DNA of 64,000 nt from a virus, in IMG/VR virus record IMGVR_UViG_3300037333_000056, positions 1 to 64,000 of that record; one strand, 5' to 3'. The translations under genes were made by a program, and so were the position numbers. The notes beneath the pieces were generated by a model. The model was not told where the DNA came from. It was given only the letters and a program-made list of their open reading frames with translations, and ran no database searches. Within the stretch, counting starts at the first letter, position 1. Each line of letters opens with the position of its first letter. This document shows, piece after piece, positions 38,039 to 50,418 of this stretch.

Positions 38039-41000
38039 TTATCCTACTATCTGAGGGAAAAATGCATCGCTACTTAGTAGTGGGGCATTTATAAAATCTA
38101 ACCCATTTCCATCAAAATGCTTTCCAAACATCTTAACAATTATGTTGCTATCAATTATTGTATCTGGATGGATATCAATAAACTGTTGAATACTTGTACC
38201 AAATGCAACTCCAGCTGGATTAGCCTTTACAGTAGCAAGTATTACTTTCTGAATCCTCATCCAGAATGATGGGAATAGCAGAACACCATAATCACTTAGT
38301 GCTTTTACTTCTTTAGGCATATTTATTTTGTAATCAACAAATGATTCAAGAGTAATTTTTATTGCATCATGCTCGCTTTTGCCTTGAGCAATAAGAGTGT
38401 CTAGTAATATTTTCCTTGACACTATATCTATCGATTGCACAGCAAACGATCCAAATCTTACCATTGCACTATCTGGCGAGGCAATAAACTCTGATATGTA
38501 TTTTGCCATATCTCCAGTCTTCTTGTTGTGCTCTATTCTATCTCCAGACTCAATTAGATTATCACCAAAAGATTGCAATGCTTTAAAGTTTTTAGCACTT
38601 TTGCCAGCAAACTGCAACAGCGTCTCTACGTTCATGCTTTGGTGACCACTTTGAGATAGGGCTTTAATAGCTTTTGCAAGACCGTTATTTTTACCATTGC
38701 TGTCTTTCAAGAACTTATTTAATAATGATTCTATGTCGTTTTGTAGACCAGAAATAACAGACTCATCTTTATTCATTACTTCAACTGATATTGATTGCAT
38801 CATTCCAGTATTTAACATTATTGCCATAGGATGTGTTTTTATTGACTCTTTGACGCGTTTAAGTTTGTTATCAACATCTTCACCAGAATACTTTTTTATC
38901 TCAAGCTCTAGTTGTTTTAGTCTTAGCTTTTCAAGTGATTTCATATCTACTATAGACTCTTTTATTAGCCTTGGAATTTCTTGAACTGGAACACCATACG
39001 CTAGTAATATTGCAACGTTTGATGTTGTGTCTCCAAATATTTTTGGAATATTTGTGATTACCCAATGTATTTTGGTTAACTTTACTGCTTGTCTTATAGC
39101 AAATGCTGCCTTTTTGAGCGAATCATTATTGCTAAACAACACAGGATCGTTAAACCCTATAGCAATGTCTGAAAAATCCTTTCTTACTAGATGAAGATGC
39201 TCGTTAATACCACCTACGGTTGTGACATTTGATACTACTTTATATCTGTCTCCTATTAGTTTATGTGTCTCAAGAACCTCTTTTGCAGTTGAAGAATCTG
39301 GCAAGCTTAAAAACAATGGAATATCTTTTGTATCAATATCTGCAAGGTCTTCTTCAAGCTTATCTATTGACGAACTTGTCTTTAGATATTTTGTCATAGT
39401 TTGACTAAGCAATTCATCTCTTGCAGCTTGAGTATTATGTATTTCAATTGACCTACCATACGACCTTACAATAGCATCAGCAGGGTTCTTGTTTAGTCCG
39501 AGAAGATCTAATTGATCAGGCGTAAGAACTATTTTTTGAAATGAGCCTTTTAAAGTTTTGATGCTGTATACATTATTCATGCCTTTCAGCTCTTTATCTT
39601 TTGGAACAATTATGTCTTGGTTGAGGTAGTGGACACTTGTTCCTGCTCCTTCTTGGCTTGTTTGTTCGACTCTGTCTCTGTATACTATTCCGTAGTCTTT
39701 TGATGTAGGCTTTTGAAGTATTCTCCATCCAGATTCTTTTGTGTAATCATTATGGTTAAGATCTTTCTTTGTTACAATAGCAAATTCTTTTGGAACAGTA
39801 AATGATTCATATAACAGGTTCTCTTTTCCAAGCATTTTATCTTTAGTTGTAGCATACATCTTATTGTGTGAGCCAAACATTCCAGCGGATAGTGTCATTA
39901 ATTCTGATGCAAATTTTTTATTCTTTCTTAATAGCTTAAATGCATTCTCGTACTCTCTTACAGTATTTCCTTCTTTATTTATACGTGTATTCTCTTTTAT
40001 GCTATATAGTGCAAGAAGTGCTCCTAGATTTAGACGCTCTGCACTATCTTGTGGATGCATTTGTGCAATATTGTATGCGTCAGTGGTTCTTGATGGAGTT
40101 CTTTTGCCAGCGTATATCTGTGCCATTGCTCTTATTCTGTGTATCTTGCTTGTATTACCTATTTTAGACTCATATTCTTTTATGTATTCATCAATTGCTA
40201 TTGTTATATCTCCTGCACGCTTATTTATAAGATTACTCATTATCTCGTTAGAACCAATAAGGTAGAAAATTGGAGATCTTGCAAAGGTATAGTATATGTT
40301 ATCCTTGTCTCTGTCTGACATATGCTCCATAAGTTTATTTAGTTTAGATATTTTATTATCTTCGAATTGCTTACGTTTTTGTGCACTTGTCATTGTGAGC
40401 GTAATTGCACTGTTTAAGCTATCAAATGTTCCTAGCCTACCCCAAGTATCAAGATATCCTTTTAGTGACTGTAGCCAGTCAGCTGAACCCCAATAGTCTT
40501 CTGCTCTATCAAATTGCATTTTATATACGTCAAAATTTTGATACATAAACTCATGAGCTTTTGCAACTCCAGATTCAGTCTTTGGACCTATAGTGCTTGT
40601 ATATATATCTCCAAGGCCATTTGATATACTCTTGTTTAACATAAATAGAGATTTATCAAGGATTGAATCAATATCAACCTTATGTTCTTTACCTTTATAT
40701 ACATAGCTCATTGTTTCTTTTAGAGATTCTTCAGCTTTCTGTTTTGTATCTTTTGGCTGAGAATCAGTACTAGAACCAGCGTGCACGGTATTTGTTATGT
40801 CGTCTTCTTTTTTGTTTTTATCTTGTTTTTTTGCCTTGCCACTACTAGATGAACTCTTGTCATACTTTTCATTATATGTTCCGTACACTACATCAACAGT
40901 AGCGTCAAGTGTGTATTCTTTCCCGTCTAAATGAGTTATTTTATTATAGTTTTCTCTTGCATGCTTTCCTGTCATAAAAGGTTTTATTCCATTGTCTTTA

Positions 41001-44000
41001 TTGACATAATCTGTTATATGAAGAGGCGTTCCATCAGGTTGCCTAGAATACACTGTTCCATTTGCCTCAACAAGAACAGTTCTGTATTCCATATCATCAT
41101 TCTTAAAGTGCCCGATAACAGTTACTTTAGCATTATCACCTTCCTTGCCAGGAATTTCTGGGCCATAACTATACTCGCCCTCAGGATTAAAATTAAATGT
41201 TATATGCTTTCCATCACTAAGCTTGAACTGACTAAATAATTTAATCTTGTCTCCATTTATAAACAGTGCATTAAATTTATTGCTGATCTTTTTGCGGATA
41301 TTTACACCTTTACCTGCGTTGTTAAATCTTACTCCGGATGCCATAACTCCATGTATTGCAAGCTTAAGTATGTCTGCATCTACAATTTCTTTTGAACTAA
41401 TCTCGTTGAATTGCTTATTCGTTACTTTTGATATTCTACCTTTTATATTGTTCCATAGTTTGATAACATTATTTTTAAGAGTTGTAGATGTAATGTTTCC
41501 ACTCTGCTTATTTATATGTTTTATTGCAGCATATGTCAATTTTGCCGTAGAGTCCTCTGCTACCATTACTGCTTCAAATTCAGCAGTCCTATGCAGTTCG
41601 TCTTCTATCTTAAGCACGTCCTGTATACGTTTAGGAAGCTTATTTATTACTTTTTCGTCAAGTCTTGAAAGTATCTCTAGTGTCTTTTTTATATATTTTG
41701 CATTTTGATCAGATTTTCCACTCGCAGAATATAAGTACCCAACAGTAGAATAGTGAACTATCTCGTGTGCTATTGCAGTTTCAATATCTAGGCCAGAACC
41801 AGACAGTGATTCTTTTGTACCTATAGTAATTCCATGTACGCTAGGGTCATACGAGAATTCAGAACCAGATGTGAGAGACTTAACATTTTCACTTTTTATG
41901 AATTCAGATATTATTTGATTATCTTTATACTTATTTATGTCAAGTGTTTTGTTCTCTGCTCTTTTTACTAATTCTCCTATAATATTAGATAGGACTTCAA
42001 CATCGTGCGATGCATCATGTGCCTTACCATCTTTTTTTACACCTAATAGACTTTCTACTGCAGATTGCGTCCTATCAAACTTTGTTCTGTTGTTACCTTT
42101 GTTGTCTACAAATTCAACGTCATCTTCATTTGAGTCTCTTAGCTCGCTAACAGCAAGCAATTTTGCATCAAATATTTCAAATTTGTTTGATAGAAGTTCA
42201 TCTACGCCAGAATATGATGACAATATATCGAAGTCAGACTTTATACCATTGTATGCAATTATTGGAGTCTTTCCTCCATCAACGCTTAATGATTCAAGAG
42301 CGTCTCGTATTGATTTTGCAACACTATCCTCGTTGTATTCTTTTGCTGAGTCAGGTATGTCTCGCTTATATTCACTGTACTCTTTCATATCAAGTATAGC
42401 ATCGAAGTCATTGCTTGACGGCTTATATTCGAACGTTACAGGATCTCCATCTTGTACAATTGTGCCATTTTCATATTTATATTTTCTTGCGTACAGCTGT
42501 AGTAGTTCTTTTGATTTTCCGCCTTTAGCATGGTCATATCGTCTTTCGTCGCTAGGGTCAAATGTATTTTCAATATCTATTACAACAACAGGTTCTCCAC
42601 TAGAGACAATATCAATTATCTTGTTAGCGTGATCTGTTACAAACTCTGATATTTTATCTCCATCTATAAATGGTCTATCTTTATGTCCAGTAGGAGTTAT
42701 TGCATATGTATCAAGATATTCACTGCTTATTTCGTCTTTCCATGACGATGTATCTGCATCATTGTTGTTGCCGTTGTTATTATTATCATTTTCTGTAACG
42801 TCTATATAAGTGTCTTTTTTATCTGATTCTATATCATTATTATCCAACCTATAGTTTTCTTTGCCTGCAATATTGTTTCCATTAAACCCAAACAATAAGT
42901 GGTTCTCAGACATACCAGCATTATATACATACTTCTTGATGAACTTTCTTTTTTTATCTATTTTTTCACTGACAGAATCAAGATTGTTTGTGTTGTCTAT
43001 AAATATTGACTTCTTTATTTGCTCTGCAGAAATAATATTTTCATCATGTCCAACATCTGCTATCTGATCCTGAAATGAATCATATAGCAGAACCAGTTGC
43101 TCGGATATATCATATTCATAGTTTATTTCAGATGTAAGTTTTTGATACTCAACATCATATATGTCACCATACACTGGTACACTATGTATAGCATCATATA
43201 TTCCAGCTGTACCATTCTGAAGTACATTTAGCAGGTCATCACGATCATTCTCAAGTGACCTGATGTACTCATTGTCAGATCCATCAATCCTGTTTAGTTC
43301 ACGTACCTCTAGGTTTATATCAAGTATCTTTTGCTTAATTATGCGTCTTGTGTTTCTGTGTGCTAACTTTTCTAGTCCTGAATCTATGCTATGTATACCA
43401 GATACTGCTGGAATTAATCCATTTGATAGCTCCTTCTTTATAGGAACATATCCAGCTCTGTCAGATTCTACAAGAACCTGTCGCTTAGAAGTTATTGGCA
43501 TTCCGTACTGCTTAATCATTTTCATGTACCATGCTCTATACTCAGGAGTACCTTTTGCAGTAATCTTTAAGTTATCTTCACTATGTGTTTTGCCATATAA
43601 GATATGGTCAGGATTACGTTCTACTCCATTGTCATCAGTATTACTTTCTGTTATTATCATCCATGTTCCTGCAGGAATTATCATCCTAGGGAACCTGTCG
43701 GCAGCATCATGATAGTGTTTACTTGCGTCAGAATAGAATGTGTCTATATTTCTGTAATATGAGCTTAGATCATTCTTGTATGCAGTAGTAGCTTGACCAA
43801 GCGTGCTATCAAGTAGCCCAGCTAGCCTATCAACTAACCCAACACCTTCCTGTGCAAAGTATGCTTGAATTGCAAGATAAACTCCAGGTATAGCAGCAAA
43901 ATCTAATTCAGTATGCTTAGATAGATCTAAAACATTTTCGTACTTATGAAGTTCTGCAGATTTATACAGATCTTCGTCAACTTCTTTTATTGATGAAACA

Positions 44001-46441
44001 AGTAAGTTTAGTGCTGAAACCCTATCGTTAGTGCTTCCACTTGTTGCGGCAGTATCTAAGTACTCAAATACATCATTAGTCATGTCTCTTGATGCAGACG
44101 CTCTTGTCCCAGCAGCCCCTGCTTGATAGTTTTTAACCATAGTAACTGGCTTAAGCATGTCGCGTATAGATCCAAATATTCCAAGACTTGTAAACTTAGA
44201 CATTACAGTAAAAGTTGATTCATCGGTATCTTCTTCTTGAGAGTTTGCATGTTCATCGTCTACTGCTTTTCTTAGTATTGCATATGCATCTGCAAGATAT
44301 TCATCTTCACTAAGATCTTTTCCAGAATCCTTTGCAATCTTCATTTTGATAAGTAAATCTTTTATCATCTCATCAGCCACATCATTAGAGCCTAGTGCTT
44401 GATATAATGTCAATATTACACCAGAAGCAGTTGCATCAGACTTGGTTCTGTAATGAGTGGTTATTTTGTCAGATCCTGATTCTTTTGCACTTCTAATATC
44501 AGATATTGCAGATAAAGAGTCTATTGCTGACCAAACGCTCTTGGTTTTGAATTTAAACTTAGTTGCTTTTCCGGAAACCATTATTTCATTTTTAGCAAGT
44601 ATCTTCATTAGCGTTGACATTGCTGACACTCTTTGATCACTAGTTAACTCTTTATTCTGAGTCTTTCTAAATAGCTTAACAAGATTATCTAATGGCTTAT
44701 TTATTCCTTCGTTTTCTATAGCTTGATACCGCTTTATCTCTTCTTGTATTTCACTTGATCCTATGAATTCGTCGACTATAGAACCGAACACCTTGTAATA
44801 TGCAGATGTTCCAACTTTAAAGCTTGACTCTCCGCCAGAAACTATTGACCTAGACATTTTGTCTGATATTTCATTAAGTACATTTGATGTTGGCATTGAA
44901 CGACTATTTCTTACTATCTTATGCTTCTTTACATATTTTTTCCCATCTTTGAACCTGTCGAATGTAATAAGTAGATTTGCTAGTGGAGTCTCTTTAGAGA
45001 TTGACATGCCGACCTCATTATCTACTCTTTCCTGCGTCAACGCACCATCATATGAACCAAAAATCTTATTCTTAAGTGCTACATCTTTTATTCCAATAGA
45101 TTCATACACTTTATTTAGAGAGACCTTATCATCTATTCCAGAATCATTATTAAACACATTGCTCATACTTGATAAAAGGTCGTTGAATATTGGGTTAATC
45201 ATATTTTCTGTTTTTGAAAGACCAACCTTGTCTTCAGTAAATATTTTTGCATACTCATCTGGAACTCCAAGATTTTGCTTTCCATCATTGCCAGATCCTT
45301 GCTCTACAGTAAATAATTGATTTTTTAATTCAGTAGGAACTCTATATTTTTCATTTGGAGGGATTGTATCGTCTGCGGCATCAAGTTCTTCTTTTTTTAT
45401 TAGCTTCTCAATATAGCTATTGTTTGTTGGTGCTTCCATATTTTGAGTTGTTGTCATCTTATTTATTGCTTGTGATGCGTTATACGTTGCCTGCAAAACT
45501 GGATATGCAGTTATTTTTTTAGTATTAAAAGAACCAGTGTTTAGAATCTCTGCAACAGTATTCTTGTCTTCAGGTTTTGTTGATTTTCCTAATAGCTTTG
45601 TTGTGTTTATATATATAGCATCTGCACCGTCAATAATTGGTTCTACACTTATATTGCCTCCAAACATATCTTTAAAGTTATTATTTAGTGTTTGTCCATT
45701 CTCTATTACTTTAACTAACCCATTACCGTATTCATCTACTGCAACCTCTGTTAGTGCATTAACTGCAGATTTTCCTATTGATATATACGCTTCATTAGCA
45801 GATATTGTGTCTGTCTCAAACTTGATTCCAGATGCTATTGCTATCTGCCTACCTATTGCTCCATACAGATTAATTGAACTAAGAATTGTTGTTCCATACT
45901 CAGATTTTAGAGTATCTTTTACAGACAACTTATCTTCTGGAGACAAGTTGAGATTCTGTAATATATGATTTTCTGCTTTTCCAGCATTTGCTATTGCATT
46001 AAATGCTATACCTACAGCACGCATAGTTGAACCTATAGTTCTTATCTCCTTATTTAGGAGCTCTTCATTTTCATCTTTTGATAACTTATCATTATACTTA
46101 TATCCTACTGGATCTACTCCATCTATATCTAGTATTCCGTCGAATAATATATTTGCTGAGGTGTTTCCTATCTTTGTTCTTGACTTGTTTATTGCACTAT
46201 GTATAGCAGATTTTATTTTTGGAATCTTTACTTCGCTATCAAGCTTAGACATAATCTCTTCTTTAATTGAAGCATCAATATTTGACATCATGTATACATA
46301 GTCTTCTGCTTTAATAGACTGAATATTCCAAGCAATAGGAGTGCTGCTTCCTGAACTATTATCCAATACTGCAGATTTCATTCTTATTTTGCCAGTCTTA
46401 GTATTTAATAATATCTTTGCATACTCTTTACATTTTCTCAT
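38039..46441 (-). CDS. Virion-encapsidated RNA polymerase (N4 gp50-like) with accessory domains
   Basis: 2800 aa, nearly Cys-free; motif A DATASG, motif B RDMLK...NYQAG, motif C IYDAI; N4 late-module position. Confidence 0.88.
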   Translation of the reverse strand: MRKCKEYAKILLNTKTGKIRMKSAVLDNSSGSSTPIAWNIQSIKAEDYVYMMSNIDASIKEEIMSKLDSEVKIPKIKSAIHSAINKSRTKIGNTSANILFDGILDIDGVDPVGYKYNDKLSKDENEELLNKEIRTIGSTMRAVGIAFNAIANAGKAENHILQNLNLSPEDKLSVKDTLKSEYGTTILSSINLYGAIGRQIAIASGIKFETDTISANEAYISIGKSAVNALTEVAVDEYGNGLVKVIENGQTLNNNFKDMFGGNISVEPIIDGADAIYINTTKLLGKSTKPEDKNTVAEILNTGSFNTKKITAYPVLQATYNASQAINKMTTTQNMEAPTNNSYIEKLIKKEELDAADDTIPPNEKYRVPTELKNQLFTVEQGSGNDGKQNLGVPDEYAKIFTEDKVGLSKTENMINPIFNDLLSSMSNVFNNDSGIDDKVSLNKVYESIGIKDVALKNKIFGSYDGALTQERVDNEVGMSISKETPLANLLITFDRFKDGKKYVKKHKIVRNSRSMPTSNVLNEISDKMSRSIVSGGESSFKVGTSAYYKVFGSIVDEFIGSSEIQEEIKRYQAIENEGINKPLDNLVKLFRKTQNKELTSDQRVSAMSTLMKILAKNEIMVSGKATKFKFKTKSVWSAIDSLSAISDIRSAKESGSDKITTHYRTKSDATASGVILTLYQALGSNDVADEMIKDLLIKMKIAKDSGKDLSEDEYLADAYAILRKAVDDEHANSQEEDTDESTFTVMSKFTSLGIFGSIRDMLKPVTMVKNYQAGAAGTRASASRDMTNDVFEYLDTAATSGSTNDRVSALNLLVSSIKEVDEDLYKSAELHKYENVLDLSKHTELDFAAIPGVYLAIQAYFAQEGVGLVDRLAGLLDSTLGQATTAYKNDLSSYYRNIDTFYSDASKHYHDAADRFPRMIIPAGTWMIITESNTDDNGVERNPDHILYGKTHSEDNLKITAKGTPEYRAWYMKMIKQYGMPITSKRQVLVESDRAGYVPIKKELSNGLIPAVSGIHSIDSGLEKLAHRNTRRIIKQKILDINLEVRELNRIDGSDNEYIRSLENDRDDLLNVLQNGTAGIYDAIHSVPVYGDIYDVEYQKLTSEINYEYDISEQLVLLYDSFQDQIADVGHDENIISAEQIKKSIFIDNTNNLDSVSEKIDKKRKFIKKYVYNAGMSENHLLFGFNGNNIAGKENYRLDNNDIESDKKDTYIDVTENDNNNNGNNNDADTSSWKDEISSEYLDTYAITPTGHKDRPFIDGDKISEFVTDHANKIIDIVSSGEPVVVIDIENTFDPSDERRYDHAKGGKSKELLQLYARKYKYENGTIVQDGDPVTFEYKPSSNDFDAILDMKEYSEYKRDIPDSAKEYNEDSVAKSIRDALESLSVDGGKTPIIAYNGIKSDFDILSSYSGVDELLSNKFEIFDAKLLAVSELRDSNEDDVEFVDNKGNNRTKFDRTQSAVESLLGVKKDGKAHDASHDVEVLSNIIGELVKRAENKTLDINKYKDNQIISEFIKSENVKSLTSGSEFSYDPSVHGITIGTKESLSGSGLDIETAIAHEIVHYSTVGYLYSASGKSDQNAKYIKKTLEILSRLDEKVINKLPKRIQDVLKIEDELHRTAEFEAVMVAEDSTAKLTYAAIKHINKQSGNITSTTLKNNVIKLWNNIKGRISKVTNKQFNEISSKEIVDADILKLAIHGVMASGVRFNNAGKGVNIRKKISNKFNALFINGDKIKLFSQFKLSDGKHITFNFNPEGEYSYGPEIPGKEGDNAKVTVIGHFKNDDMEYRTVLVEANGTVYSRQPDGTPLHITDYVNKDNGIKPFMTGKHARENYNKITHLDGKEYTLDATVDVVYGTYNEKYDKSSSSSGKAKKQDKNKKEDDITNTVHAGSSTDSQPKDTKQKAEESLKETMSYVYKGKEHKVDIDSILDKSLFMLNKSISNGLGDIYTSTIGPKTESGVAKAHEFMYQNFDVYKMQFDRAEDYWGSADWLQSLKGYLDTWGRLGTFDSLNSAITLTMTSAQKRKQFEDNKISKLNKLMEHMSDRDKDNIYYTFARSPIFYLIGSNEIMSNLINKRAGDITIAIDEYIKEYESKIGNTSKIHRIRAMAQIYAGKRTPSRTTDAYNIAQMHPQDSAERLNLGALLALYSIKENTRINKEGNTVREYENAFKLLRKNKKFASELMTLSAGMFGSHNKMYATTKDKMLGKENLLYESFTVPKEFAIVTKKDLNHNDYTKESGWRILQKPTSKDYGIVYRDRVEQTSQEGAGTSVHYLNQDIIVPKDKELKGMNNVYSIKTLKGSFQKIVLTPDQLDLLGLNKNPADAIVRSYGRSIEIHNTQAARDELLSQTMTKYLKTSSSIDKLEEDLADIDTKDIPLFLSLPDSSTAKEVLETHKLIGDRYKVVSNVTTVGGINEHLHLVRKDFSDIAIGFNDPVLFSNNDSLKKAAFAIRQAVKLTKIHWVITNIPKIFGDTTSNVAILLAYGVPVQEIPRLIKESIVDMKSLEKLRLKQLELEIKKYSGEDVDNKLKRVKESIKTHPMAIMLNTGMMQSISVEVMNKDESVISGLQNDIESLLNKFLKDSNGKNNGLAKAIKALSQSGHQSMNVETLLQFAGKSAKNFKALQSFGDNLIESGDRIEHNKKTGDMAKYISEFIASPDSAMVRFGSFAVQSIDIVSRKILLDTLIAQGKSEHDAIKITLESFVDYKINMPKEVKALSDYGVLLFPSFWMRIQKVILATVKANPAGVAFGTSIQQFIDIHPDTIIDSNIIVKMFGKHFDGNGLDFINAPLLSSDAFFPQIVG

Positions 46442-46452
46442 TATATTCCTTA

Positions 46453-49400
46453 TTATCTTTTAATACAGAAGGTAAATTCTTCTTCAATCAATGCCTGTTT
46501 TTCACTATCTACAAGCTCTTCATCTGATATTATATCGTACAACTCTTCAATCTCGTATTCATTTTCAATCTTCTCATTGTGTGATAAATATACTATTTCA
46601 TCTTTGTTCTTTTTTATATTTTTAATCTCTTCTTTTAACTCACTCTTCCTTCTTATCTGTTCTATGTCTGCGTTTCCAGAGTTTATTTCCTGTTCGATTC
46701 CAAGCAACTCACTTTCAATTTTGTATTGCTTCTTATCTAGCTTTTTCATCTCTTTATCTATCTGTTTTGAGCTCTTGATTAGTTTAGTGTTTCTATATAT
46801 CTTTTTTTGCTTACTTGTTAGCTCAGTGTCTGTTGCATTAACGCCTCTAGCATTAATTACTCTTCTAAATATCTCAGCCTCTTTGCTTGTTATATTCTTT
46901 GCATCTTCTGCTACATTTATAAGATTATGAACAAATTCAACCTCTTGCTTTGATCTGATACTGCTCTTTTTTGCATACTTCAGTATAGTATTATATGCAT
47001 CAATATTATGGTTGTCCATAAGATTTGCATCTATGATTTCATCGTTTTTTGCAGATTTTAGTCCAGTTGCAGCTTCGCCTATTATTGCAACAAGTGTTTT
47101 GTTATATTCTTTTGGACTAGAGTTTTCATCTGAGTCAAAAACTATATTTAGACTGTTTATCGCAGACTTTAGGTTCTCAGCTTTCTTTTTGTCTAAACCA
47201 GAGCTGTTGTATAGTTTTTCGGCTACATCCTGCAGGAGACGCATTCCTTCATCTTGAGATGTTATTGCAAGGCTATATGAACGCATTATTCCCTGTATTT
47301 GGTCAATAACTTCGTTTGAATACTTATATGTACTCTTTTTTGCAACCTCTGATGATATATTTTTAAGAACGTCTCTCGTGTGTATATTCTTTGATGAGTT
47401 TATCCTAGTAGCAAAGTCTTCACCATCCTGCTCCTCAACTTTTGCTATTTCTATTCTAGCAGCATTTCTTGTTTTAAATACTGATTCTATTGCAGCTTTC
47501 ATTGCCTTACTTGCAGACGGATCATTAAAGGCTTCCTTTAGCGACTCATCTGAATATGTTCTTATATTCTTTTCTATCTTGCTTTTTGTCCCAAATGATC
47601 TCAATTTATGCATGAATGTTTTAGGGTCACTTTTGTACTCGTTTACATCTATCTTGTCATTACTAAACTCATTTACAGCAGAACCTGACGACAATGCTTC
47701 TTGTCTCTTTATCTTGTGTCCATCTAACCTATCAAGCCTTGCTTGAATTGTTTTTGCTAGAGTATCAGCTTTATTGTTTATAGCGTTTACTTGTTCATGA
47801 ATAATACCATTGTCTTTATCAAATACACTCTTTTCTACTGTGTATAGTGGACTATACTTGCTGTTTCCTACAGTATGTAATCTATCCATTGAATATATAT
47901 TTGTTCCAGGAAGAAATATTTCTCTACTAGTGCCACTGGTTCTTGTATTGTTGTCAATTTTATGCATATCTCTTTTTTGCTCTGGAGTAGCATTAAGATA
48001 CAGTTCCTTCATGTATGCCTGACGCTCATCTGTATCCATAAGACTTATTTTCTTCATAACTTCTTCATCAACAGCACCAGAATCACCAAGAATTTTGTCT
48101 TTAACACCTAAAGCGTTAAGAGTTTCAGTGGTTATAAAACTTGATTTTGAAAACTCTTCAGCAGCTTTTTCGTTATACTCATCATTATTGTCGAACACTG
48201 ACAGCATAGATTGCTCTCTTATTGCATTACCTAAGTCTCTTACTTCAGGTATTGCTGAGTCTGTTAGCTCTGATATGTCTTTTGCTTTTTTTGTTGCTTC
48301 TACTGCGTCTTTCATTATATGCCAGTTATCTTGCATAACTTCAATATCTTTAGACTCATTTGCAGCATAAAAATCAAAATCAGTTTGATCCATATTGTTA
48401 ACCATCGTATCGATGTTTGCTTTAGCTCTTTTTTCTGCAATTTTTGTATTAACAGATTTTGCAAAACTTTTAGCAAAAGACAAAGAGCTTGAAGGAGCTT
48501 TTGGCACCATATGCATCAATCCACCTGCTCCAGCACCAGCTATTGCAGCTTGAAACGCTTGGCTTCTATTCTTTTCGTCACGCAGAATGTCTTCGACATC
48601 CTTTTCGCTTATTCCATATTGTTGTCCAATTATCTCTCCCCATGTCTGAGTATACTCTTGAAATCCTTCCTCAGTCATACTTGCTAATGCAGAACCAGTT
48701 TTATTCAATAGCTTGTTTGTAAAAAATGGCTTTAGAGTATCTGGCATTTTGTTATATGACGACTTTAATATTGACGTTGTTGGCTTTGTTGCTTTTGACA
48801 ACTTACTTATTCCAGATACGTGATCAAAGGATAGCTTATCAAGAAGTGTAAAAGGCATCTCGAATGCATACAGTGCTGTAGCTTCTCCAACACTAACTGA
48901 TGGATCTTCTCCTGCTTCAAGCTTTGCCTTTATTCTCTCATCAAGTATTCTGTTTGTGTTTACTAAGTTTATTGTCTCGACTCCAGCACCTTTAGCAAGC
49001 AAGTTTAAGCCTTTAAGCATCTGCTCAGAGTCTTTGTATTTATTGTATACGCTCAACTCTCTAGGCTTAAACGATGCCTTTCCTACATCAACTATTTTCT
49101 TTATATCAGATGCTGATGCCCCAGCAGCCTTTGCTTTATTTACGTTTGCAACCAATCTTAGTGCTCCAGCTGTACCTGATACTTCACTTACGCCTATAGA
49201 CATACCAGCCATGTACGGTAACGACTCAGCTACGAATGACGGTGCAGACTGTGCAACACTCCATAGTCCAGATGCTATATCGCCACGATTAAACGCAGCT
49301 TCAGCTTCTACAACTTTACTTTGAGCGTAATGCCTATCATATCCAACAAATTTATCTGCCCATTCTTGCTGATAATCATTAAGAAGCGTGTTGTCATCAC

Positions 49401-50418
49401 CAGGAAGCAGGTCAAGCAATGCGTCTGCTGTTCCAGTTACGAGACCAAGTGCACCAGCCTGAAACGCGTCAACGAAGTTACTATCCCATGGACGACTCCT
49501 ACTGTGCTGATACATAAATTTTGATCGTTCAAGGTTTCTAGCATAATCTTCACTTGTTCCAGTATCTAATCCTAGAAGATCTTGATCATATAGTTCTGTT
49601 TTCCCTGCACCAAAATTTATACCTGATGCTTCATCTCTAGACTTTAGCCCATCAGGAGTCATAACCTTGTCAGATGACATTACTCTATGGTCAAGGTTCT
49701 CGTCAAGTGCATGCCATTTGTTTTCCCAATCGAGTGCTCCAGCAAATTTCTTTTCACCAATAAGTTCCCATCCGTCTTGAGTATATTGGTCTTTGTATCT
49801 TCCGTATGCACCATCATGTGCATATCCAAGCTTATAGATATATTTTGTGCTTCCATCGTCATTATATCCATCAAATTTCCTAAGGTTATATACTCCACCT
49901 TCAGCATCAGGATTATCTTCTGCATTATTATATTGATCTATTAAGTCTTGCCTTGTTAACCCTTTAGCTCCAATAAAGTCTTTATTCTGCATATTATACT
50001 TGCGACCATTTCGTTCAGCCTGAAATCCATCTCTATGGGTTATCCAGTCCCCTTGACCATAATCGAGTACATTTTCTGTTGCTTCTAAGAACCAGTCTAC
50101 GGCGTGTATCCCAGCATTAGCAACTTCTTTTGCTCTGAGCATTGAGTCGCTGTCATTAATGAGTGTTCCATCTTGCTCATACTTGAGATCAGCTTTTCTA
50201 TATATTGACTTACGCTTTAACTCTGCAGCTCTAGCAAGCTTTGTTCTCCTGTCAAATTGTGCATCTAATTGTTCTATGTCATATTCAGATTGAGCTATTG
50301 CTTGCTGTAAATATGGGTCAATTGAAACATCAGGCTCTTTGTCGTACGGAGTATACTCTCCAGTAGTATCATCTATATATCCTTGTGGTTCATCGTCGTA
50401 TATGTAGTCTTCTGCCAT
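46453..50418 (-). CDS. Large ejection protein, probably the split N-terminal part of vRNAP; contains a GIY-YIG-like segment
   Basis: 1321 aa, nearly Cys-free, hydrophobic Gly/Ala helices, directly upstream of vRNAP. Confidence 0.65.
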   Translation of the reverse strand: MAEDYIYDDEPQGYIDDTTGEYTPYDKEPDVSIDPYLQQAIAQSEYDIEQLDAQFDRRTKLARAAELKRKSIYRKADLKYEQDGTLINDSDSMLRAKEVANAGIHAVDWFLEATENVLDYGQGDWITHRDGFQAERNGRKYNMQNKDFIGAKGLTRQDLIDQYNNAEDNPDAEGGVYNLRKFDGYNDDGSTKYIYKLGYAHDGAYGRYKDQYTQDGWELIGEKKFAGALDWENKWHALDENLDHRVMSSDKVMTPDGLKSRDEASGINFGAGKTELYDQDLLGLDTGTSEDYARNLERSKFMYQHSRSRPWDSNFVDAFQAGALGLVTGTADALLDLLPGDDNTLLNDYQQEWADKFVGYDRHYAQSKVVEAEAAFNRGDIASGLWSVAQSAPSFVAESLPYMAGMSIGVSEVSGTAGALRLVANVNKAKAAGASASDIKKIVDVGKASFKPRELSVYNKYKDSEQMLKGLNLLAKGAGVETINLVNTNRILDERIKAKLEAGEDPSVSVGEATALYAFEMPFTLLDKLSFDHVSGISKLSKATKPTTSILKSSYNKMPDTLKPFFTNKLLNKTGSALASMTEEGFQEYTQTWGEIIGQQYGISEKDVEDILRDEKNRSQAFQAAIAGAGAGGLMHMVPKAPSSSLSFAKSFAKSVNTKIAEKRAKANIDTMVNNMDQTDFDFYAANESKDIEVMQDNWHIMKDAVEATKKAKDISELTDSAIPEVRDLGNAIREQSMLSVFDNNDEYNEKAAEEFSKSSFITTETLNALGVKDKILGDSGAVDEEVMKKISLMDTDERQAYMKELYLNATPEQKRDMHKIDNNTRTSGTSREIFLPGTNIYSMDRLHTVGNSKYSPLYTVEKSVFDKDNGIIHEQVNAINNKADTLAKTIQARLDRLDGHKIKRQEALSSGSAVNEFSNDKIDVNEYKSDPKTFMHKLRSFGTKSKIEKNIRTYSDESLKEAFNDPSASKAMKAAIESVFKTRNAARIEIAKVEEQDGEDFATRINSSKNIHTRDVLKNISSEVAKKSTYKYSNEVIDQIQGIMRSYSLAITSQDEGMRLLQDVAEKLYNSSGLDKKKAENLKSAINSLNIVFDSDENSSPKEYNKTLVAIIGEAATGLKSAKNDEIIDANLMDNHNIDAYNTILKYAKKSSIRSKQEVEFVHNLINVAEDAKNITSKEAEIFRRVINARGVNATDTELTSKQKKIYRNTKLIKSSKQIDKEMKKLDKKQYKIESELLGIEQEINSGNADIEQIRRKSELKEEIKNIKKNKDEIVYLSHNEKIENEYEIEELYDIISDEELVDSEKQALIEEEFTFCIKR

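What the first reader, a model, noticed from the sequence alone, without database searches (positions are those of the whole stretch)
40890..41230. 2H-phosphoesterase-like domain inside the injected virion RNA polymerase
Two HxT motifs (KHITF at about 41200 and PLHITD at about 41015) lie about 60 aa apart and are followed by GIKPF, the layout of 2H phosphoesterases. Established: phage Acb1 is a 2H enzyme that degrades CBASS cyclic nucleotides, and N4 vRNAP is injected with the DNA. Inference: an anti-signalling or RNA-repair enzyme delivered at time zero as part of the polymerase.
Basis: partly seen in the sequence, partly recalled or inferred. Interest (0 to 1): 0.8.

Follow-up and report, generated by a model that had tools for sequence, protein, structure and literature searches.

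The report
Small 2H phosphoesterase inside phage polymerase
An uncultured N4-like phage has a small, apparently working phosphoesterase of the 2H type inserted into its giant virion RNA polymerase; such enzymes are already known as cargo of injected multi-enzyme phage proteins, and what this one cuts is untested.

Summary
The 2800-aa ORF (38039-46441, minus strand) contains exactly two H-[ILVM]-T motifs, H1746-I-T and H1808-I-T, 62 residues apart.

- **Family:** an exhaustive HMMER search found 24 credible relatives, either stand-alone 103-200 aa phage proteins or modules of giant polyvalent proteins. Across the 33-row alignment (window domain plus relatives) the four catalytic positions are kept in 31-33 of the 32-33 rows that cover them.
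- **Fold:** AlphaFold2 with that alignment gives a confident model (pLDDT 94.7). It matches CNPase (Z 9.1-9.4), the fungal tRNA-ligase CPD domain (Z 8.7) and RICH (Z 8.5). Fifteen other 2H structures, Acb1 among them, score only Z 2.7-4.6.
- **Sequence:** no Pfam, PHROG or PDB sequence profile detects the domain, so it is an unannotated, unusually small 2H family.
- **Accessory module:** the domain plus a low-complexity linker (aa 1707-1926) is an insertion between the zincin peptidase and the N4-type C-terminal domain. All ten closest full-length orthologues lack it.
- **Partners:** no RNA ligase, RtcB, PNK-like kinase or Tpt1 is encoded in this genome.

Best reading: an active, CNPase-like cyclic phosphodiesterase carried as injected counter-defence cargo. 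The substrate is unknown, and an Acb1-like role is possible but less supported.

2H cargo in polyvalent proteins was described by Iyer et al. 2017. This scan has also noted 2H cassettes in other phage RNA polymerases. Interest is moderate.

The parts
38039..46441 (-). 2800-aa ORF plus stop: N4-like virion RNA polymerase / polyvalent protein (P0001)
   Evidence: ORF list and translation. phrog_2206 'virion RNA polymerase' matches the C-terminus. tblastn hits annotated vRNAPs of Alteromonas, Vibrio and Pseudomonas N4-like phages over aa 1935-2799. Ten orthologues of 1831-2576 aa were found.
40856..41263 (-). 2H phosphoesterase domain, aa 1727-1862
   Evidence: Homologue extent and alignments A1/A4. 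AF2 model pLDDT 94.7, pTM 0.86. Fold matches to CNPase, Trl1-CPD and RICH at Z 8.5-9.4. BFVD hits at E 1e-6 and 1e-5, TM 0.68-0.70.
41198..41206 (-). First catalytic motif, H1746-I-T1748, at the start of model strand 22-27; followed by F1749 and F1751
   Evidence: H kept in 32/32 and T in 31/32 rows covering it; the +5 aromatic is F or Y in 31/32 rows.
41012..41020 (-). Second catalytic motif, H1808-I-T1810, at the start of model strand 84-89
   Evidence: H kept in 33/33 and T in 33/33 rows.
40976..40990 (-). GIKPF (aa 1818-1822), leading into the only long helix of the domain (model residues 97-106)
   Evidence: G1818 29/33, P1821 28/33, G1825 33/33, A1828 31/33; secondary structure.
40664..40855 (-). 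Low-complexity Ser/Lys/Asp/Glu-rich linker, aa 1863-1926, between the 2H domain and the C-terminal domain
   Evidence: Sequence. pLDDT falls below 50 where it begins. It has no counterpart in orthologues.
40664..41323 (-). Insertion relative to orthologous vRNAPs (aa 1707-1926): 2H domain plus linker
   Evidence: BLASTP of P0001 against P0038 aligns 1498-1706 and then 1927-2773, with only 51 aa between the blocks in P0038. P0036 (55% identical C-terminal domain) also lacks it. The domain HMM finds it in 0 of 10 orthologues.
41753..41767 (-). HEIVH zincin (MPTase) motif, aa 1559-1563, upstream neighbour of the 2H module
   Evidence: HExxH is present in all 11 family members. H1559, E1560 and H1563 are near-invariant in A6. 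Iyer et al. [quoted passage not shown]
42002..42589 (-). DEDDh-type 3'-5' exonuclease motifs (ExoI VVVIDIE 1285-1291, ExoII 1397-1405, ExoIII 1475-1480); a second accessory insertion
   Evidence: Motif positions. Weak phrog_192 'DNA polymerase exonuclease subunit' hit, E 8e-4. The region aligns in P0036 but is missing in P0038.
43181..44440 (-). T7-like RNAP motifs A (SDATASG, 668-674), B (R760...K764...Y772.AG) and C (IYDA, 1081-1084)
   Evidence: D669, S673, G674, R760, K764, Y772 and D1083 are invariant in the 10-sequence family alignment A6. These were read as motifs by eye. Profile comparison with N4 mini-vRNAP was not significant.
38042..40663 (-). C-terminal domain (aa 1927-2800), homologous to the C-terminal domain of N4-like vRNAPs
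   Evidence: phrog_2206; tblastn; orthologues 26-55% identical.

Best explanation
Residues 1727-1862 form a catalytically intact, unusually small 2H phosphoesterase of the CNPase / RICH / tRNA-ligase-CPD branch. Together with a disordered linker it was inserted as an accessory module between the zincin peptidase domain and the C-terminal virion domain of an N4-like virion RNA polymerase. By analogy with N4 gp50 and with other polyvalent phage proteins, the module is packaged in the capsid and enters the cell with the polymerase. It may then be freed by cleavage in the linker. There the two His-x-Thr motifs would carry out metal-independent acid-base catalysis on a phosphodiester next to a ribose 2'-OH. 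The most likely reaction is hydrolysis of a 2',3'-cyclic phosphate, on RNA ends left by host metal-independent RNases or on cyclic-phosphate nucleotides. This would blunt an RNA- or nucleotide-based host defence before any phage gene is expressed. Shown here: the motifs, their conservation, the predicted fold, and the insertion's accessory status. Inferred: enzymatic activity, packaging and injection, release from the polymerase, substrate, and biological role.
For: Motifs and conservation. Confident AF2 model. Fold: VIA-align against 48,161 chains gives CNPase 2xmi Z 9.1 (rmsd 3.2, 120 of 145 residues, 19% identity), with the next unrelated hit at Z 5.3. The second look gives about 38 mouse CNPase entries at Z 8.5-9.4, human CNPase 1woj 9.1, fungal Trl1 kinase-CPD 6u05 8.7 (chain 639-832) and RICH 2i3e 8.5. 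Foldseek gives probability 1.00 for the same proteins. BFVD gives two small viral proteins at E 1e-6 and 1e-5, plus giant-virus RNA-ligase-type proteins. Language-model features point to clusters carrying tRNA_lig_CPD, and one member has a marginal tRNA_lig_CPD hit at E 0.073. Cargo context: the same domain sits directly upstream of a vRNAP C-terminal domain in P0004, P0007 and the L001 ORF, and shares a protein with NADAR and an SF1 helicase in P0005 and P0007. Accessory status: 0 of 10 orthologues carry it and the insertion boundaries are clean. One stand-alone relative overlaps a P-loop AAA_33 kinase gene, the kinase+CPD pairing of CNPase and Trl1. Literature: 2H domains occur in polyvalent proteins, never with RNA ligases, and were proposed to act as RNases or degraders of defence nucleotides; MPTase domains may release modules (PMC5512222).
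Against: No biochemical data exist. No sequence profile (Pfam, PHROG, PDB) recognises the domain, so the 2H assignment rests on a predicted structure plus the motifs. A cyclic phosphodiesterase normally works with a kinase and a ligase, yet this 88%-complete genome has no PF09414 ligase, RtcB, AAA_33 kinase or Tpt1, and the 95%-complete L001 genome has no PF09414 ligase or AAA_33 kinase. The kinase pairing occurs in one contig only and is absent from its near-identical relative L007. Fold similarity does not fix substrate in this superfamily. Packaging and injection are inferred from N4, not shown for this phage.
Confidence: 0.55

Rival explanations
1. Acb1-like anti-signalling nuclease (one of the two roles the first reader proposed). 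The module cleaves 3'-5' or 2'-5' bonds of host immune nucleotides (CBASS cyclic di- and trinucleotides, type III CRISPR cyclic oligoadenylates, 2-5A-like signals) as soon as the polymerase is injected.
For: It has the same HxT/HxT tetrad and a compact 2H fold, as Acb1 does (PMC9117128). Acb1 and other viral signal-degrading 2H enzymes do appear among the fold hits: 7t27 Z 3.7, VP3 4.1-4.6, MHV ns2 3.1, penguinpox cGAMP PDE 3.0, and several BFVD Acb1 models at E 0.03-0.16. No RNA-repair partners were found. Its sporadic, accessory distribution and its co-occurrence with the counter-defence-type NADAR domain fit an arms-race effector. Iyer et al. proposed this role for polyvalent-protein 2H domains.
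Against: It is structurally much closer to cyclic phosphodiesterases (Z 8.5-9.4) than to any signal-degrading 2H enzyme (Z 4.6 or less). hhalign of the family against T4 Acb1 gives 0.45% probability. I did not test whether Acb1's C-terminal lid and base-stacking residues are present.
Confidence: 0.2
2. Offensive RNase. The module acts like Usb1/Mpn1, trimming or cutting host RNAs and leaving 2',3'-cyclic phosphate ends. It would be a host shut-off or anti-CRISPR-RNA effector, possibly working with the neighbouring DEDDh exonuclease.
For: Iyer et al. favoured this for polyvalent-protein 2H domains because their architectures parallel those of PBECR RNases. Usb1 is among the fold hits: 5uqj Z 3.3 and 6pfq Z 2.9. 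A DEDDh 3'-5' exonuclease lies in the same protein.
Against: Usb1 similarity is weak compared with CNPase and Trl1-CPD. No RNA-binding domain is evident next to the module. The DEDDh and 2H insertions occur independently in relatives: P0036 has DEDDh but no 2H.
Confidence: 0.12
3. Chance motifs in a non-catalytic structural or spacer domain of the polymerase.
For: H[ILVM]T is a short motif. 17% of shuffles of this protein contain two or more of them. No sequence family model recognises the domain.
Against: Both motifs are kept in 31-33 of the 32-33 rows that cover them, at 26-57% identity to the window domain. Only 1.1% of shuffles give a pair at this spacing. The fold match is to enzymes whose catalytic residues are exactly such motifs. 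The domain also exists as a free-standing 103-137 aa protein.
Confidence: 0.03
4. A BECR-fold RNase toxin related to Ntox28.
For: Pfam Ntox28 is the best Pfam hit: 19.4-19.7 bits, E about 1e-3, over aa 1780-1820.
Against: The hit is below the curated cut-off (25 bits), covers about 40 residues, and is seen in only 2 of 20 family members. The confident model has the 2H fold and no BECR or barnase-like structure appears among the fold hits.
Confidence: 0.02

Closest known systems
CNPase / RICH / tRNA-ligase (Trl1) CPD branch of the 2H phosphoesterase superfamily
   Same: The predicted fold matches over about 118 of 130 residues (Z 8.5-9.4, rmsd about 3 A, 15-20% identity). It has two H-x-T motifs. 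An aromatic residue lies five positions after the first His (F1751); CNPase has F235 after H230, going by the numbering in the PDB titles. One stand-alone relative is paired with a P-loop kinase, as in CNPase and Trl1.
   Different: It is about 105-135 aa against about 200-215 aa, and nearly all helices are missing: the model has one helix. There is no detectable sequence-profile similarity. There is no fused kinase or ligase in this protein or genome. It is embedded in a phage virion polymerase. Product regiochemistry is unknown.
2H domains of phage polyvalent proteins (Iyer, Burroughs, Anand, de Souza, Aravind 2017, PMC5512222)
   Same: It is a 2H domain carried as one module of a giant, presumably head-packaged and injected multi-domain phage protein. 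It also occurs as solo phage genes and is not associated with RNA ligases.
   Different: That paper describes 2H fused to MuF or portal domains. For N4-like RNAPs it lists MPTase, lysozyme, PBECR1 and ART fusions, not 2H. I could not test whether their 2H version belongs to the same sequence family.
Acb1 (phage anti-CBASS 2H nuclease; T4 gene 57B, PDB 7T27)
   Same: It is a phage-encoded compact 2H enzyme with an HxT/HxT tetrad, and Acb1 appears among the fold hits.
   Different: The relationship is distant: Z 3.7, hhalign 0.45% probability. Acb1 is a free protein of about 150 aa, whereas this domain is a virion-protein module. Activity on cyclic oligonucleotides is untested.
Phage N4 gp50 virion RNA polymerase
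   Same: The C-terminal domain is homologous (phrog_2206). An MPTase HExxH domain follows the polymerase core. T7-like motifs A, B and C are present, and the genome is of similar size (73.7 kb).
   Different: It is 2800 aa rather than 3500 aa, and the polymerase core lies nearer the N-terminus, with a separate 1321-aa upstream gene. It carries two extra modules, DEDDh and 2H. Profile comparison with N4 mini-vRNAP was not significant.

Membership tests
2H phosphoesterase superfamily | Two H-x-[TS]-x motifs, each preceded and followed by hydrophobic residues | tested here: met
   K-H-I-T-F (1745-1749) and L-H-I-T-D (1807-1811). H and T are kept in 31-33 of the 32-33 alignment rows that cover them.
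2H phosphoesterase superfamily | Bilobed fold in which each lobe contributes one HxT-bearing strand | tested here: met
   AF2 pLDDT 94.7. Each motif begins a strand (22-27 and 84-89). Z 9.1-9.4 to CNPase, 8.7 to Trl1-CPD and 8.5 to RICH; 15 further 2H structures at Z 2.7-4.6. This is a predicted structure, not an experimental one.
2H phosphoesterase superfamily | The two His side chains face each other across one active-site cleft | not testable with these tools
   Model coordinates and residue-level superpositions are not returned by the tools. Juxtaposition is inferred from the full-length fold match only.
2H phosphoesterase superfamily | Recognition by a curated 2H sequence model (LigT_PEase, 2_5_RNA_ligase2, CPDase, CNPase, tRNA_lig_CPD, AKAP7, HVSL, 2H-SAK) | tested here: not met
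   No 2H Pfam family appears at E<=10 for the window domain. One of 20 members hits tRNA_lig_CPD at E 0.073. The PDB profile search returned nothing. This is not a defining feature of the superfamily, whose families are mutually very divergent.
2H phosphoesterase superfamily | Metal-independent phosphoesterase activity dependent on the two His residues | not testable with these tools
   Needs enzyme assays.
CNPase / Trl1-CPD branch | Closest structural similarity to CNPase, RICH and Trl1-CPD rather than to LigT-like enzymes | tested here: met
   Z 8.5-9.4 against 4.6 or less for all other 2H structures.
CNPase / Trl1-CPD branch | Association with a P-loop polynucleotide-kinase-like domain | tested here: not met
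   No AAA_33 match in the window's genome. Only one stand-alone relative (L006) has an overlapping AAA_33 kinase gene, and its near-identical relative L007 lacks it.
Acb1 anti-CBASS nucleases | Sequence homology to Acb1 | tested here: not met
   hhalign of A1 against T4 57B gives probability 0.45%.
Acb1 anti-CBASS nucleases | Structural similarity to Acb1, including the C-terminal lid and base-stacking aromatics | tested here: inconclusive
   7t27 Z 3.7, rmsd 4.5, 95 residues aligned. BFVD Acb1 models at E 0.03-0.16. Lid and aromatic residues were not examined.
Acb1 anti-CBASS nucleases | Cleavage of 3'3'-cGAMP and related CBASS signals | not testable with these tools
   Needs assays.
N4-like virion RNA polymerase (host protein) | C-terminal domain homologous to gp50-type vRNAPs | tested here: met
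   phrog_2206, E 5e-23. tblastn to annotated vRNAPs, best E 4e-41 over aa 1935-2751.
N4-like virion RNA polymerase (host protein) | T7-like single-subunit RNAP catalytic motifs | tested here: inconclusive
   Motif A, B and C residues are invariant in A6. However, phmmer against the PDB found nothing and hhalign against N4 mini-vRNAP gave 3.6% probability.
N4-like virion RNA polymerase (host protein) | Packaged in the virion and injected with the DNA | not testable with these tools
   Established for N4 (literature cited in PMC5512222). Inferred here by homology and synteny.

The most novel reading that the evidence does not exclude
This is the founding example of a new, smallest-known 2H family (about 105-135 aa, nearly all-beta, invisible to current profiles). 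N4-like and other phages would deploy it as time-zero injected counter-defence cargo. After entry it would be released from the polymerase, by the adjacent zincin peptidase cutting the linker or by reduction of the terminal-cysteine links seen in this protein family. It would then destroy a host immune nucleotide or cyclic-phosphate RNA species before any phage gene is transcribed.
Probability: 0.3. Interest if true: 0.7.

Novelty: new variant of a known kind. Interest (0 to 1): 0.5.

Why it matters
If the domain is active, it would show that single-subunit N4-type virion polymerases, like MuF/portal-linked polyvalent proteins, carry pre-made nucleotide- or RNA-processing enzymes into the cell. 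That would be counter-defence that needs no gene expression. It would also add a very small, tractable 2H enzyme, with stand-alone versions of about 105 aa, whose nearest structural relatives are eukaryotic CNPase and the tRNA-ligase CPD domain. This is useful for tracing the history of that branch and for annotating a family that Pfam and PHROGs currently miss. The general idea has been in print since 2017, so the gain is incremental until a substrate is found.

Tried and rejected
- **Single-sequence AF2** of aa 1700-1880 was useless (pLDDT 33).
- **PDB sequence searches:** phmmer with the domain gave only chance hits. The profile search with A1 gave nothing at E<=10.
- **Pfam and PHROGs** on the domain gave only sub-threshold Ntox28, CbiG_mid and phrog_10497. 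I rejected Ntox28 (see rivals).
- **hhalign against T4 Acb1** was not significant.
- **ESM Atlas look-up of stand-alone P0031:** the Atlas model has pLDDT 0.41 and the neighbours are meaningless.
Genomic context of most homologues could therefore not be read.
A2, P0029 and A5 gave 7 loci from 6 contigs.
- **Neighbours of the stand-alone copy in L003** are unannotated small ORFs plus a radical-SAM protein.
- **P0018, P0019 and P0028** from the HMMER search are tandem-repeat proteins whose many weak matches add up. I treated them as spurious and left them out.
- **The PF09511 search** is uninformative because the control genomes were silent.
- **RNAP core checks:** phmmer of the N-terminal 1247 aa and of the DEDDh/MPTase segment against the PDB found nothing. 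hhalign of the vRNAP family against N4 mini-vRNAP was not significant.
- **No paper** was found on the phage BCSR5 phosphodiesterase structures 9q2y/9q2g.
- **Lys-x-Ala motifs:** none flank the module. The only ones in aa 1681-1940 are KLA at 1693 and KHA at 1826, the latter inside the domain. Such motifs border 2H cassettes that this scan noted in jumbo-phage RNAPs.
- **Base composition** of the insertion is not anomalous: 35% GC against 33% for the window.

Full report
**The sequence.** The window belongs to a 73,659-bp IMG/VR virus record estimated 88% complete, with 33% GC. The finding lies inside one 2800-aa ORF on the minus strand, 38039-46441. These are the only two H[ILVM]T triplets in the whole protein, against 0.73 expected. 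A pair 40-100 aa apart arises in 1.1% of shuffles.

**The host protein.**
- *C-terminal domain.* The C-terminal ~870 aa match PHROG 2206 'virion RNA polymerase' and the annotated vRNAPs of Alteromonas, Vibrio and Pseudomonas N4-like phages.
- *Polymerase motifs.* In an alignment with nine orthologues (A6), the residues of T7-like motif A (D669, S673, G674), motif B (R760, K764, Y772) and motif C (D1083) are invariant. So is the HExxH of the zincin peptidase, which Iyer et al. 2017 report in all N4-like RNAPs.
- *Direct comparison with N4.* Profile comparison with N4 mini-vRNAP was not significant, and no PDB sequence hit was found. The polymerase assignment therefore rests on motifs, the C-terminal homology and genome type.
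- *Domain order.* RNAP core (~400-1150), DEDDh exonuclease motifs (1285-1480), zincin (HEIVH at 1559), the domain in question (1727-1862), a Ser/Lys/Asp/Glu-rich linker (1863-1926), then the C-terminal domain (1927-2800).

**A conserved family.** No Pfam, PHROG or PDB sequence model recognises the domain. An exhaustive phmmer search of 1.84 billion representative proteins found 27 other proteins at E<=1e-3. Three of these are repeat proteins that I discarded as spurious.
- *What the relatives are.* They are stand-alone proteins of 103-200 aa or modules of giant proteins. Further searches added seven small proteins and seven loci from six viral contigs.
- *Conservation.* In the 33-row alignment A4, H1746 is kept in 32/32 rows covering it, T1748 in 31/32, H1808 in 33/33 and T1810 in 33/33. 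G1777 and G1825 are invariant, and Q1801, L1807, P1821, A1828 and the aromatic at 1751 are nearly so.
- *Tree.* A maximum-likelihood tree splits the family into a 'module' clade of 12 rows, which holds the window, and a 'stand-alone' clade of 21 rows. Both have 100/98 support.

**The fold.** Without an alignment, AF2 failed (pLDDT 33). With A4 it gave pLDDT 94.7 and pTM 0.86, with all five models above 92. The model has seven strands and one helix, and each HxT motif opens a strand (22-27 and 84-89).
- *Foldseek.* Against the PDB it ranks mouse CNPase, goldfish RICH and the fungal tRNA-ligase kinase-CPD protein at probability 0.97-1.00.
- *Unbiased search.* VIA-align against 48,161 chains gives CNPase 2xmi at Z 9.1 (rmsd 3.2 A, 120 residues, 19% identity). 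This stands well clear of the next, unrelated hit at Z 5.3. Below it come the phage BCSR5 phosphodiesterase, rotavirus VP3, drCPDase, Arabidopsis CPDase, YjcG, Acb1 (Z 3.7), LigT, ThpR, Usb1, AKAP18, MHV ns2, penguinpox cGAMP PDE and ASCC1, at Z 2.7-4.3.
- *Second look.* This gives human CNPase at Z 9.1, Trl1-CPD (6u05, residues 639-832) at 8.7 and RICH at 8.5.
- *Viral models.* BFVD gives two ~153-aa viral proteins at E 1e-6 and 1e-5 (TM 0.68-0.70), plus giant-virus ligase-kinase-CPD-type proteins.
- *Weak supporting hints.* Language-model features point the same way (clusters with tRNA_lig_CPD), as does one marginal Pfam hit.

I conclude that the domain is a 2H phosphoesterase of the CNPase/Trl1-CPD branch, stripped of most helices.

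**Context.** The same domain sits just upstream of a vRNAP-type C-terminal domain in P0004, in P0007 and in the 1868-aa ORF of L001. In P0005 it shares a protein with NADAR and an SF1 helicase, and in P0007 with NADAR.
- *Absent from orthologues.* Among the ten closest full-length relatives of this polymerase (26-55% identical in the C-terminal domain), none has the domain.
- *Insertion boundaries.* Pairwise alignments show that aa 1707-1926 are a clean insertion between the zincin domain and the C-terminal domain. It is therefore swappable accessory cargo, not part of the transcription machinery.
- *Repair partners in this genome.* There is no PF09414 RNA/DNA ligase, RtcB, AAA_33 kinase or Tpt1.
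- *Repair partners in L001.* The 95%-complete L001 genome has no PF09414 ligase or AAA_33 kinase. This agrees with the published remark that polyvalent-protein 2H domains never accompany RNA ligases.
- *One exception.* In L006 a P-loop AAA_33 kinase gene overlaps the start of a stand-alone copy. The near-identical L007 lacks that gene.

**Mechanism and rivals.** I commit to an active, CNPase-like cyclic phosphodiesterase module delivered with the polymerase as counter-defence cargo.

| Step | My estimate |
|---|---|
| 2H fold | ~0.9 |
| Catalytically active | ~0.8 |
| Packaged and injected | ~0.7 |
| 2',3'-cyclic phosphate as the real substrate | ~0.4 |

- The Acb1-like reading (~0.2) is not excluded, because substrate cannot be read from the fold in this superfamily. 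The structural distance to Acb1 and to other signal-degrading 2H enzymes is much greater, though.
- A Usb1-like RNase role (~0.12) is also possible.
- An inert domain (~0.03) or an Ntox28-like RNase (~0.02) is unlikely.

**Novelty.** Iyer et al. 2017 described 2H domains in polyvalent proteins (fused to MuF or portal) and proposed RNase or signal-degrading roles. For N4-like RNAPs they list MPTase, lysozyme, PBECR1 and ART fusions, not 2H. This scan has also reported 2H cassettes inside the multisubunit RNAPs of jumbo phages on other DNA.

New here:
- the family is unannotated and very small;
- it belongs to the CNPase-like branch;
- it sits in a single-subunit N4-type vRNAP;
- it is shown to be a sporadic insertion.

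I rate this a new variant of a known kind, with moderate interest.

**Seen in passing.** Every giant protein in this set has cysteines only at its extreme ends. That extends another first-reader note on this genome and probably deserves its own follow-up.

Noticed in passing
window 46430-46432 (Cys4 of the 2800-aa ORF) and 46465-46467 (Cys1318 of the upstream 1321-aa ORF 46453-50418, minus strand); also L001 and P0004-P0009, P0036-P0045: These giant proteins have cysteines only at their ends. The 2800-aa protein has a single Cys at residue 4, and the upstream 1321-aa protein has a single Cys four residues from its end. L001 ORF1 (2758 aa) has its only Cys as the last residue, and ORF2 (1868 aa) has its only Cys at residue 4. 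P0005, P0008 and P0009 have exactly two, at residue 3 and within the last 3 residues. Nine of ten orthologues have one Cys, at residue 3-7, and C4 is invariant in A6. Proteins with the vRNAP C-terminal domain have only the N-terminal Cys. This suggests head-to-tail covalent joining (disulfide?) of separately encoded modules, possibly reversed in the reducing cytoplasm.
   Followed up: partly
window 42002-42589 (-), aa 1285-1480: The DEDDh-type exonuclease motifs lie in a second accessory insertion. The region aligns in orthologue P0036 but is missing from P0038, which has about 54 aa where P0001 has about 357. There is a weak phrog_192 hit, E 8e-4.
   Followed up: partly
L006:3717-4567 (+): A 146-aa P-loop AAA_33 (PNK-like) kinase gene overlaps, by an ATGA junction, the start of a 137-aa stand-alone 2H homologue. 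This is the kinase+CPD pairing of CNPase and Trl1. The near-identical contig L007 has the 2H gene without the kinase.
   Followed up: partly
P0005 (aa 1080-1189) and P0007 (aa 308-448): NADAR domains (Pfam E 1e-15 and 7e-20) share a polyvalent protein with the 2H module. P0005 also has a Dda-like SF1 helicase, and P0007 has a vRNAP-type C-terminal domain.
   Followed up: no
L001:95-13987 (+), 120.5-kb viral contig: Two adjacent giant ORFs (2758 aa with no family hit, then 1868 aa) are separated by 9 nt. The second carries the 2H module (aa ~541-678) followed by a vRNAP C-terminal domain (phrog_2206, E 4.5e-62). It looks like a split polyvalent/vRNAP system in a phage much larger than N4.
   Followed up: partly
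window ~44840-45020 (-), aa ~474-534: The only stretch that hhalign aligned between this vRNAP family and N4 mini-vRNAP puts the family's conserved 'YRTTR' against N4's 'TRVGR', the T/DxxGR motif region. The match is not significant (probability 3.6%).
   Followed up: no
window 41247-41708 (+): A 153-aa TTG-initiated ORF lies on the opposite strand inside the polymerase gene and touches the start of the 2H domain. It is listed mechanically, I found no evidence that it is a gene, and I did not examine it.
   Followed up: no
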